Origin: a virus
Length of the DNA: 64,000 nucleotides
IMG/VR virus record: IMGVR_UViG_3300037483_001148
Location: 1-64,000 of that record
Reading direction: 5' to 3' (one strand)
Shown: piece by piece, positions 48,397-48,535 of the stretch
Layout: every line of letters begins with the position of its first letter
How positions within the stretch are numbered: position 1 is the first letter of the stretch
The notes under the pieces: model-generated
What the model saw: the letters and a program-made list of their open reading frames with translations, nothing else
Databases searched by the model: none
Told to the model about the DNA's origin: nothing
Translations under genes and position numbers: made by a program

Positions 48397-48535
48397 GGCC
48401 TCCTAGCTAAAAATGCAATTGAAAGTAACCTAATCACAGAACGAGTTTCTCGTTCAACCTGGGGTACTTACAAACAATGGACAAAGCGTCAGTCTTAGGA
48501 ACTGAAGAATCCTGGTTCGATTCCAGGGGAGGCCA
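48397..48535 (+). ncRNA. tRNA body (anticodon TAG) with Y-RNA-like module 3 inserted in the D arm
   Basis: GGCCTCC/GGAGGCC acceptor, TCAGT-CTTAGGA-ACTGA, CCTGG-TTCGATT-CCAGG; ~67-nt insert at 48409-48475 closed by GAACGAG-ttt-CTCGTTC. Confidence 0.8.

What the first reader, a model, noticed from the sequence alone, without database searches (positions are those of the whole stretch)
48397..48535. tRNA(UAG) with the handle inserted inside-out in its D arm
Seen: an otherwise canonical short-variable-arm cloverleaf with free ends. The insert carries the handle's 3' strand first and its 5' strand second, joined by GAACGAG-ttt-CTCGTTC, so it is a circular permutation of the other units. The body looks Arg-like, but the anticodon is Leu (TAG) and there is no long variable arm. 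Standard tRNA finders would probably miss it or call an intron. Inference: the only unit that could be processed by RNase P and CCA-adding enzyme, and possibly charged, while remaining tethered to the protein.
Basis: partly seen in the sequence, partly recalled or inferred. Interest (0 to 1): 0.72.

Follow-up and report, generated by a model that had tools for sequence, protein, structure and literature searches.

The report
tRNA-shaped phage RNA with Ro60 handle
A phage gene encodes a complete tRNA-shaped RNA with free ends. Inside its D loop it carries the hairpin that neighbouring small RNAs seem to use to dock onto the phage's Ro60-like ring protein. At least 15 other phage contigs hold the same kind of RNA, and I found no description of it in the papers I could search.

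Summary
Window 48397-48535 (+) folds as a canonical cloverleaf: a 7-bp acceptor stem, anticodon loop CUUAGGA, a 5-nt variable loop and a UUCGAUU T loop. A 55-nt hairpin (48419-48473) sits in its D loop. That hairpin is the "handle" of the neighbouring units with the strands swapped: 3' strand, UUU cap, 5' strand.

ARAGORN and Rfam miss the gene. ARAGORN calls tRNA(UAG) from 48397 once the insert is deleted.

It is not chance. A covariance model built only from 10 units of other phages finds 48397-48535 end to end (79 bits, E 1.6e-18). Across 7 phages, 25 of 34 pairs covary. I counted 34 such units in at least 15 phage contigs, mostly clustered just upstream of a Ro60-like gene on the same strand.

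Best reading: a tRNA-shaped Y-RNA-type partner of the phage Ro60-like protein (48736-50214). It would be matured at its ends like a tRNA and keep the handle. Charging or decoding is open. No expression or binding data exist.

This is a new variant of the Ro60/YrlA kind. The scan has noted the same design before on other DNA (for example e1-5980556).

The parts
47963..47991 (+). Sigma-70-like promoter (TTGACA, 17 nt, TACACT) in front of the small-RNA array
   Evidence: The scan alone is no better than chance (2 sites found, 2.3 expected). However, near-consensus promoters also sit directly before the first unit of the arrays in L001, L002 and L003 (read).
47996..48072 (+). Unit 1: handle-only RNA made of stem A, an internal loop, stem B and ACAAAC
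48168..48320 (+). Unit 3: circularly permuted YrlA-type tRNA mimic. The order is T arm, closed acceptor hairpin, D arm, anticodon-like arm. Its 5' and 3' ends form the handle.
   Evidence: Rfam YrlA partial match at 48204-48257, 22.5 bits; fold
48321..48393 (+). Plain tRNA(CAU) without a handle, 4 nt upstream of the finding
48397..48535 (+). The finding: a tRNA-shaped RNA with an open 7-bp acceptor stem and an internal handle
48406..48408 (+). D stem, 5' half (GCU). It pairs with AGC at 48485-48487 and is invariant in 7 phages.
48419..48473 (+). Handle hairpin: 3'-type strand, then cap, then 5'-type strand, with stem B at the base
48439..48455 (+). Stem A (GAACGAG/CUCGUUC) with a UUU cap at 48446-48448. 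It carries the CGUUC/GAACG core shared by all four handles of the window.
48467..48475 (+). CUUACAAAC motif: the last pairs of stem B plus single-stranded ACAAAC. It is invariant in the 7-phage alignment.
48479..48480 (+). GG in the position of G18 G19 of the D loop, 3' of the insert
   Evidence: The same layout is seen in L150 and L153.
48489..48505 (+). Anticodon arm UCAGU-CUUAGGA-ACUGA, anticodon UAG at 48496-48498
48511..48527 (+). T arm CCUGG-UUCGAUU-CCAGG
48528..48535 (+). Acceptor 3' strand GGAGGCC and discriminator A. It is followed by CUA; no CCA is encoded.
48536..48670 (+). Unit 5: a complete tRNA(CAU) with an encoded CCA, flanked by the two handle strands
48679..48707 (+). Intrinsic-terminator-like hairpin followed by a T run, at the end of the array
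48736..50214 (+). 492-aa Ro60/Rsr-shaped protein: a helical ring part plus a vWA domain with the DxSxS MIDAS motif
   Evidence: AlphaFold2 mean pLDDT 80. The 12 best Foldseek matches listed (ranks 1-12) are all Ro60/Rsr/TROVE entries over about 470-526 columns. VIA-align gives Z 16.8 to D. radiodurans Rsr with 426 residues aligned. The Pfam TROVE model does not hit.

Best explanation
This is a handle-tagged, tRNA-shaped Y-type RNA: a partner RNA of the phage's Ro60-like protein built on an unpermuted tRNA.

Proposed mechanism:
1. The array at about 47996-48710 is transcribed as one precursor. This is inferred from the promoter, the terminator and the 3-4 nt spacers.
2. The unit is released by the host's tRNA end-processing enzymes. 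RNase P cuts before 48397. A 3' endonuclease or exonuclease acts after the discriminator at 48535, and CCA is then added. This is inferred. It rests on the intact acceptor/T-arm 'top half', on the array layout, and on a 3' trailer (C-U-N, never CCA) that the class shares with plain tRNA genes of a related phage.
3. The 55-nt hairpin in the D loop is kept, not spliced out. This is comparative inference.
4. The hairpin docks the RNA onto the Ro60-like ring encoded 201 nt downstream. The contact would be made by the conserved CGUUC.AC 5'-strand motif and the ACAAAC tail. This is inferred by analogy with Y RNAs and from gene linkage.
5. The particle then displays a complete L-shaped tRNA with free ends at the tip of a roughly 25-bp arm. 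This would tether Ro60 to whatever binds that tRNA.

The identity of that partner, and whether the RNA is ever aminoacylated, is open.
For: Structure and selection:
- In 7 units from 7 phages, 96.6% of cells are paired, against 42-52% when partners are slid. 25 of 34 pairs show compensatory changes in the acceptor, handle stem A, handle stem B, anticodon and T stems. No shuffle of 500 reached this.
- The leave-one-out model finds the unit at 79 bits, E 1.6e-18.

The insert is the handle:
- It aligns without gaps to the handle strands of units 1, 3 and 5.
- Each unit's stem A extension and stem B are complementary within that unit.
- In L001, L002, L003 and L133 the internal hairpin carries that locus's own handle sequence.

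Link to Ro60:
- The downstream protein has the Ro60 fold.
- In whole-record searches of five phages of 170-595 kb, 20 of 24 hits lie within 7 kb upstream of the Ro60-like gene on the same strand.
- A Ro60-like gene is present in the record of 16 of the loci that hold handle-type arrays or matches.

tRNA-type maturation:
- In all 34 units the base after the discriminator is C, and U follows in 28. None of the 34 encodes CCA.
- 44 of 58 plain tRNAs of the related phage G011 have the same C-U trailer.
- Units abut neighbouring tRNAs with spacers of 2-10 nt.
- M. smegmatis YrlA is cut by RNase P and receives CCA in vivo (PMC4201824).

Against decoding being the selected role of the class:
- By my reading of the loops listed, about 10 of 34 units have anticodon loops that are not 7 nt, or lack U33, or lack a purine at 37.
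- The nearest homologues of this unit share its anticodon stem but have the loops AUUCUAA, AACCUAA and AUUUUGGA.
- In G011, three of the four readable handle-tagged anticodons (UUU, CAU, UCU) duplicate plain tRNAs of the same genome.
Against: - There are no expression, end-mapping or binding data.
- The protein is Ro60-like by predicted structure only. Pfam TROVE gives no hit. The family profile reaches human RO60 only weakly, and only over the junction and vWA part (E 3.6e-4).
- The handle lacks an exact GNCGAAN0-1G motif.
- The helix is an internal hairpin, which has never been shown to bind Ro60.
- This unit's anticodon loop (C32 U33 UAG G37 A38) is fully canonical, and CUA makes up 13.6% of the phage's Leu codons. 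Decoding by this particular unit is therefore not excluded.
- In G003, four units lie 18 kb from the Ro60-like gene.
- One record that CheckV rates complete (L188) has a mini-handle unit but no Ro60-like or vWA gene that I could detect.
Confidence: 0.62

Rival explanations
1. It is a working tRNA. It is charged and used on the ribosome to read CUA/CUG, and it also carries a Ro60 docking arm, for example for quality control, repair or protection of phage tRNAs.
For: - All universal tRNA core nucleotides are present: U8, A14, GG, G26, U33, G37, G53, U54 U55 C56, A58, C61 and U48.
- The anticodon loop CUUAGGA is canonical.
- By my reading, about 24 of 34 class members have canonical YU-NNN-R loops, with anticodons typical of phage tRNA sets.
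- The 3' trailer matches that of plain tRNAs.
- The phage has 40% G+C and uses CUA at 11.8 per thousand codons.
- In G011 the only GUA (Tyr) anticodon found is on a handle-tagged unit.
Against: - The UAG anticodon sits on a class I body with a 5-nt variable loop, unlike bacterial tRNA-Leu.
- A35 rules out ArgRS recognition, which depends on C35 (textbook knowledge).
- A 55-nt helix at the elbow, with a 55-kDa ring bound to it, is hard to fit into ribosomal sites (inference).
- The close homologues have A33 or 8-nt loops.
- Most handle-tagged anticodons in G011 duplicate plain tRNAs.
Confidence: 0.2
2. The hairpin is an intron-like or processing-only element. It is cut out, and the halves are ligated, to give an ordinary 73-nt tRNA.
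For: Deleting the insert in silico gives an ARAGORN-callable tRNA. Ro60 genes travel with RtcB ligase in Salmonella (PMC7790460).
Against: - The insert is the same module that forms the ends of units 1, 3 and 5, where it cannot be an intron.
- Its position differs between relatives: inside the D loop, replacing the D loop, or between the D and anticodon arms. Its sequence motif is nevertheless kept.
- It is 55-67 nt and lies in the D loop, unlike bacterial group I tRNA introns. No intron family matched at E up to 10.
- I saw no bulge-helix-bulge at the junctions, by eye only.
- No RtcB gene is found in the 100-kb record.
Confidence: 0.06
3. The handle is real, but it binds some other protein or RNA, not the Ro60-like protein. 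Gene proximity would reflect only shared transcription.
For: The L188 record has a mini-handle unit and no detectable Ro60-like gene. The G003 second cluster is 18 kb from the Ro60-like gene. No binding data exist.
Against: The handle sequence changes from phage to phage together with the local Ro60-like protein, while all units within one phage share it. The units cluster tightly on the same strand upstream of the gene in genomes of up to 595 kb. The CGUUCAAC, GUUCGAC and GUCCCCGAC 5' strands resemble the Ro60-contacted GGUCCGA / GNCGAA (PMC4201824).
Confidence: 0.1
4. It is a decayed tRNA gene disrupted by an inserted repeat, or a chance fold.
For: It falls below the Rfam tRNA threshold.
Against: E is 1.6e-18 with a model built from other phages. 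Compensatory changes occur in every helix. All core tRNA nucleotides are kept.
Confidence: 0.02

Closest known systems
YrlA Y RNAs of bacteria and mycobacteriophages (Rfam RF02553; Chen et al. 2014, PMC4201824; structure preprint 10.1101/312249)
   Same: Both are small RNAs encoded next to a Ro60/Rsr gene on the same strand. Both are modular: a Ro60-binding stem plus a tRNA-like domain with a real D/T-loop elbow. Unit 3 of this very array (48168-48320) is of this permuted type.
   Different: YrlA is a circularly permuted tRNA. Its acceptor stem is a closed hairpin, it has no anticodon loop and no free CCA end, and the RNA's own 5' and 3' ends form the Ro60-binding stem. Here the order is that of a normal tRNA, the acceptor ends are free, the anticodon arm is complete, and the binding stem is an internal capped hairpin in the D loop. 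RF02553 does not match this unit.
[quoted passage not shown]
   Same: It is a Ro60-bound tRNA mimic with an opened 7-bp acceptor stem and a CCA end. The authors called it potentially aminoacylatable.
   Different: That RNA becomes two base-paired fragments after cleavage. Here a single covalent chain has both free acceptor ends and an intact handle, and this is encoded directly in the gene.
D. radiodurans Yrn1 (PMC4201824)
   Same: Its tRNA-like elements are in tRNA order relative to the RNA ends.
   Different: In Yrn1 the Ro60-binding stem takes the place of the acceptor stem, which resembles unit 5 here. In the finding, the acceptor stem is free and the binding stem branches from the D loop.
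Thermus phage phiLo Ro60 with Yrl1 and Yrl2 (PMC12135203; PDB 9KOP, 9L5Y)
   Same: It is a phage-encoded Ro60 with Y-like RNAs encoded just upstream, and its structure is among the matches to this protein.
   Different: The parts of the paper I read report no tRNA-shaped module with free ends. The Yrl RNAs were picked by their structure and a CGAA motif.
Permuted tRNA genes of Cyanidioschyzon and two-piece tmRNA (from my own knowledge; the former is cited in 10.1101/312249)
   Same: They show that tRNA-type RNAs tolerate circular permutation of the gene.
   Different: Those cases restore a normal tRNA or tmRNA. Here the permutation concerns an added protein-binding arm.

Membership tests
tRNA (canonical cloverleaf, Rfam RF00005) | 7-bp acceptor stem plus a discriminator base; 5-bp T stem with a 7-nt T loop holding U54 U55 C56 and A58 | tested here: met
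   compensatory changes
tRNA (canonical cloverleaf, Rfam RF00005) | 5-bp anticodon stem and a 7-nt loop with U33 and a purine at 37 | tested here: met
   The loop is CUUAGGA
tRNA (canonical cloverleaf, Rfam RF00005) | D arm of normal size (3-4 bp stem, 7-11 nt loop) | tested here: not met
   The 3-bp stem GCU/AGC encloses 76 nt, including a 55-nt hairpin
tRNA (canonical cloverleaf, Rfam RF00005) | Reaches the Rfam gathering score, or is called by ARAGORN | tested here: not met
   26.8 bits against a threshold of 29, with a wrong 5' half. ARAGORN makes no call and calls it only after in-silico deletion.
tRNA (canonical cloverleaf, Rfam RF00005) | Aminoacylation and decoding | not testable with these tools
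   Needs charging assays
Bacterial tRNA-Leu (class II) | Long variable arm | tested here: not met
   The variable loop is AGAAU, 5 nt
Y RNA (Ro60 partner RNA) | Encoded within about 4 kb of a Ro60 orthologue on the same strand (criterion of PMC4201824) | tested here: met
   The unit ends 201 nt before the ORF at 48736-50214, whose model has the Ro60 fold. Relatives show the same clustering.
Y RNA (Ro60 partner RNA) | Conserved 5'-strand motif of the Ro60-binding helix (GGUCCGA in animals, GNCGAAN0-1G in YrlA) | tested here: inconclusive
   CUCGUUCAAC here, CCGUUCGAC in unit 3 and CGUCCCCGAC in relatives resemble the motif but do not match it
Y RNA (Ro60 partner RNA) | The binding helix is formed by the RNA's own 5' and 3' ends | tested here: not met
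   The helix is an internal hairpin capped by UUU. The RNA ends lie in the acceptor stem.
Y RNA (Ro60 partner RNA) | Physically bound by Ro60 | not testable with these tools
   Needs immunoprecipitation or a gel shift
YrlA (Rfam RF02553) | The order T arm, closed acceptor hairpin, D arm; score of at least 69 bits | tested here: not met
   The model does not match 48397-48535. The neighbouring unit 3 matches in part at 22.5 bits.
Ro60 / TROVE protein (for the partner gene) | Ring of HEAT-like helices plus a vWA domain with a MIDAS motif | tested here: met
   Z 16.8 with 426 residues aligned to 2NVO, and Z 16.4 to human Ro60. The 12 best Foldseek matches listed are all Ro60 entries. D313, S315, S317, T377 and D401 are invariant.
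Ro60 / TROVE protein (for the partner gene) | Match to the Pfam TROVE model (PF05731) | tested here: not met
   No hit at E up to 1. Only VWA_2 matches.
Bacterial tRNA intron (group I) | A ribozyme of more than 200 nt in the anticodon loop | tested here: not met
   The insert is 55-67 nt and lies in the D loop. No intron family matched at E up to 10.
Handle-tagged tRNA class defined here (models R1, R2) | Full-length match to a model built from other phages | tested here: met
   79.1 bits, E 1.6e-18, model positions 1-138

The most novel reading that the evidence does not exclude
The RNA is matured, receives CCA and is aminoacylated while Ro60 stays docked on its D-loop arm. This would be a natural, covalently tagged aminoacyl-tRNA. 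It would carry a Ro60 ring, and any nuclease that Ro60 recruits, to synthetases, EF-Tu or ribosomes. Alternatively it could serve as bait for host anticodon nucleases. The diverse, mostly canonical anticodons of the class would then have a purpose.
Probability: 0.15. Interest if true: 0.88.

Novelty: new variant of a known kind. Interest (0 to 1): 0.7.

Why it matters
Bacterial Y RNAs of the YrlA type mimic tRNA, but nobody knows what their tRNA-like domain binds. The published view is that they lack a free CCA end, so they are unlikely to be charged.

These phage RNAs keep the whole tRNA: free acceptor ends, an anticodon arm and the elbow. They move the Ro60 handle to an internal hairpin. That makes the question directly testable. 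Are they processed? Do they receive CCA? Are they charged? Are they bound by EF-Tu or by anticodon nucleases while docked on Ro60?

The class is conserved with compensatory changes in at least 15 phage contigs, including genomes of 370-595 kb. Standard tRNA finders do not see it, so phage tRNA inventories and Ro60/Y RNA catalogues both miss it.

Tried and rejected
I could not fetch the DNA around the closest protein relatives (P0002-P0007, 46-61% identical, Logan assemblies).
- The first pattern scan, CAGAACG...CGTTCRAC, gave only chance hits, none with a Ro60-like gene.
- The search for related loci found nothing in genome contigs. Alignment A2 was too diverse for it. The L133 protein found nothing in viral contigs.
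- Searches of the phage collection with the window's or the L133 protein found only LR756511.
- Sequencing runs: no RNA holder is listed. X1 is the probable source DNA. X2 matched only the plain tRNA(CAU) of other organisms.
- phmmer of the protein against PDB found nothing. The NCBIfam matches were meaningless.
- The phage record holds no RtcB and no CCA-adding enzyme gene.
- Two Wolin-lab reviews (PMC10870794, PMC6047535) are not held. My statement that the layout is undescribed therefore rests on five full-text searches and the papers read.
- I looked for a bulge-helix-bulge motif at the insert junctions by eye only.
- Similarity of the body to tRNA-Arg is marginal: score 24, against 21 for Phe.

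Full report
**Setting.** The window is part of a 100-kb IMG/VR virus record rated about 80% complete. Between 47940 and 48736 there is no + strand ORF of 60 aa or more. This stretch holds an array of structured RNAs. A sigma-70-like promoter lies at 47963-47991 and an intrinsic-terminator-like hairpin at 48679-48707.

The gene that follows (48736-50214, 492 aa) matches only a vWA domain in Pfam. Its AlphaFold2 model has a mean pLDDT of 80. The 12 best Foldseek matches listed for this model are all Ro60/Rsr/TROVE structures, aligned over nearly their full length. VIA-align gives Z 16.8 with 426 residues aligned to D. radiodurans Rsr, and Z 16.4 to human Ro60. The MIDAS residues DxSxS, T and D are invariant in the family. 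The Pfam TROVE model does not hit. The family profile reaches human RO60 only weakly. I therefore call the protein "Ro60-like by fold".

**The observation.** Region 48397-48535 is an almost textbook cloverleaf.
- Acceptor stem GGCCUCC/GGAGGCC with discriminator A.
- U8 and A9, then a D stem GCU/AGC.
- GG at the G18 G19 position, and G26.
- Anticodon arm UCAGU-CUUAGGA-ACUGA, variable loop AGAAU ending in U48.
- T arm CCUGG-UUCGAUU-CCAGG.

The D loop holds a 55-nt hairpin (48419-48473). Its distal stem GAACGAG/CUCGUUC is capped by UUU.

The window contains three other units with the same two-helix "handle":
- Unit 1 (47996-48072) is the handle alone.
- Unit 3 (48168-48320) is a YrlA-type permuted tRNA mimic, with a partial Rfam YrlA match.
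- Unit 5 (48536-48670) is a complete tRNA(CAU) with CCA, lying between the two handle strands.

The 30-nt 5' strands of all four units align without gaps, with CGTTC.AC and C..ACAAAC invariant. The 3' strands share CA..GAACG. In the finding, the 3'-type strand comes first and the 5'-type strand second.

Each unit's stem B differs in sequence but is complementary within that unit. The base pair next to CGUUC/GAACG also covaries: C-G in unit 3, and U-A in units 4 and 5.

**Finders miss it.** ARAGORN does not call the gene. Rfam's tRNA model gives 26.8 bits, below its threshold, using a false 5' half. When I delete the insert in silico, ARAGORN calls tRNA(tag) starting at 48397 for essentially every deletion that leaves 67-77 nt.

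**Relatives.** The protein family is rare: 9 clusters among 5.8 billion proteins. Related loci came from IMG/VR, JGI metagenomes and GenBank.
- L001, L002, L003 and L133 (the 595-kb phage LR756511) each have an RNA array upstream of the Ro60-like gene.
- Each of these arrays contains an open-acceptor, tRNA-shaped unit with an internal hairpin that carries that locus's own handle sequence.
- L004-L007 have only a plain hairpin RNA.

The motif CUUACAAAC is shared between the window and L133, although the proteins are only 26% identical. A pattern scan with this motif plus a T arm brought in 56 loci. Many of them hold several copies, and a Ro60-like gene lies beside them or elsewhere in the same record.

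**Conservation and covariation.** Seven units with the handle inside the D stem align well. They are the window, L150, L153, L133, L146, L189 and L156.
- RNAalifold predicts the acceptor, handle stem B, handle stem A, anticodon and T helices. 25 of its 31 pairs show compensatory changes.
- With the invariant D stem added, 96.6% of cells are paired, against 42-52% when partners are slid by 1-3 columns. 25 of 34 pairs covary. None of 500 shuffles reaches these values.
- A model built from ten units of other phages, without the window, finds 48397-48535 from the first to the last position at 79.1 bits, E 1.6e-18. The window's plain tRNAs match it only in part, at 31 bits or less.
- A model search over the fetched loci lists 34 distinct units of at least 105 nt at 59 bits or more, in at least 15 phage contigs.

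The insertion site varies among these units:
- In the 5' part of the D loop with GG kept (window, L150, L153).
- Replacing the D loop (L133, L146, L189, L156).
- Between an intact D arm and the anticodon arm (L001, L003, L153, L156, L149).

The caps are unrelated short loops (UUU, GAAA, UUCG, UCGG). This is what one expects of a mere connector.

**Link to the Ro60-like gene.** I searched five whole phage records of 170-595 kb with the model. All 6 hits in LR756511, all 5 in G011 and all 4 in G012 lie 0.9-4.5 kb upstream of the Ro60-like gene on its strand. The 2 hits in G002 lie 6.6 kb upstream. G003 has 3 hits directly upstream and 4 in a second cluster 18 kb away. Published work uses the same strand-and-distance criterion to assign Y RNAs (PMC4201824).

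One exception stands. The L188 record is rated complete. It has a reduced handle (a 6-bp hairpin plus UUACAAAC) in a D arm, but no Ro60-like or vWA gene that I could detect.

**End maturation (inferred).**
- The unit lies 4 nt after a plain tRNA(CAU) and 3-4 nt before unit 5. Relatives show spacers of 2-10 nt. Such packing needs tRNA-type endonucleolytic separation.
- In all 34 units the base after the discriminator is C, followed by U in 28. None encodes CCA.
- 44 of 58 plain tRNA genes of the related phage G011 have the same C-U trailer.
- By contrast, handle-flanked tRNAs often encode CCA. Examples are the window at 48635-48637, L133, L001 and G011 28305-28378. Their 3' end continues into the handle.
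- From my own knowledge, RNase P, RNase Z, CCA-adding enzyme and EF-Tu mainly read the acceptor/T-arm half of a tRNA, and that half is untouched here.
- The phage record has no CCA-adding enzyme and no RtcB gene of its own.

**Decoder or mimic?**

For decoding:
- The loop CUUAGGA is fully canonical and the core nucleotides are all present.
- By my reading, about 24 of 34 class members have canonical loops.
- CUA is a moderately used codon in this 40% G+C phage.

Against decoding:
- The UAG anticodon sits on a class I body.
- The nearest homologues share the anticodon stem UCAGU/ACUGA but have the loops AUUCUAA (UCU), AACCUAA (CCU, with A33) and AUUUUGGA (8 nt).
- By my reading, about 30% of the class breaks rules that real tRNAs almost never break.
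- In G011 the handle-tagged UUU, CAU and UCU units duplicate plain tRNAs of the same genome.

I conclude that the class is selected mainly as a tRNA-shaped partner of the Ro60-like protein. Charging of this particular unit remains open.

**Comparison with what is known.** YrlA RNAs are described as circularly permuted tRNA mimics with a closed acceptor hairpin and no free CCA end (PMC4201824; 10.1101/312249). Only M. smegmatis YrlA is opened by RNase P and receives CCA, and it then becomes two pieces. Yrn1 has its Ro60 stem in the acceptor position. Thermus phage phiLo Ro60 binds two upstream Yrl RNAs (PMC12135203).

I found no description of a complete, unpermuted tRNA carrying the Ro60-type stem as an internal hairpin (searches; papers read). 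Two reviews were not available.

The scan itself has noted the same design before on other DNA, for example e1-5980556, e1-5918033 and e1-5339722. It has also noted the neighbouring units of this window.

**Verdict.** This is a new architectural variant of the Ro60/Y-RNA kind. It is conserved and under selection, and it has clear bench tests.

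Noticed in passing
34 units in L001-L003, L133, L146-L191 and window 48536-48538; G011 plain tRNAs: The base after the discriminator is C in 34 of 34 handle-tagged units, and U follows in 28. None encodes CCA. 44 of 58 plain tRNA genes of phage G011 share the C-U trailer. This looks like a common 3'-processing signal in these phages.
   Followed up: partly
window 48563-48637; L133 1790-1864; L001 3481-3555; G011 28305-28378: tRNAs that lie between the two handle strands often encode CCA directly before the 3' handle strand. 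The free-ended units never do.
   Followed up: partly
G011 27104-27175 (= L146 6030-6101); L153 3572-3724; window 48397-48535: A UAG anticodon on a short-variable-arm (class I) body recurs in the Ro60-linked arrays of three phages. This is odd for a Leu anticodon.
   Followed up: no
L188 12651-12756: A 106-nt tRNA(CAU)-shaped unit has a reduced handle (a 6-bp hairpin plus UUACAAAC) in its D arm. Its record is rated complete, yet I detected no Ro60-like or vWA gene there.
   Followed up: partly
L001 3481-3555; G011 167507-167581: ARAGORN calls a handle-flanked tRNA with anticodon UUA (reads the stop codon UAA) in L001, and a tRNA(CUA) amber-suppressor type in G011. These hint at stop-codon reading in these phages.
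   Followed up: no
window 48066-48175: A structured stretch between units 1 and 3 lacks the handle motifs and has no family match. It remains unexplained.
   Followed up: no
L004 2850-2965; L005-L007 about 3850-3960: Relatives whose Ro60-like protein is 39% identical have only one roughly 110-nt plain hairpin RNA directly upstream, with 5' CGUUCU and 3' AGAACG. It has no tRNA part.
   Followed up: no
window 47599-47940 and 50353-52673: Genes flank the locus on the same strand: a small protein with a C2H2 zinc finger upstream, and a ThiF/E1-type enzyme at 52101-52673 downstream. Earlier notes of the scan read these as a ubiquitin-like conjugation set.
   Followed up: no
G003 126673-128224 against 148439-149847: One 239-kb phage has two clusters of handle-tagged tRNA-shaped units. 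One is directly upstream of the Ro60-like gene, and the other is 18 kb away inside a tRNA array.
   Followed up: no
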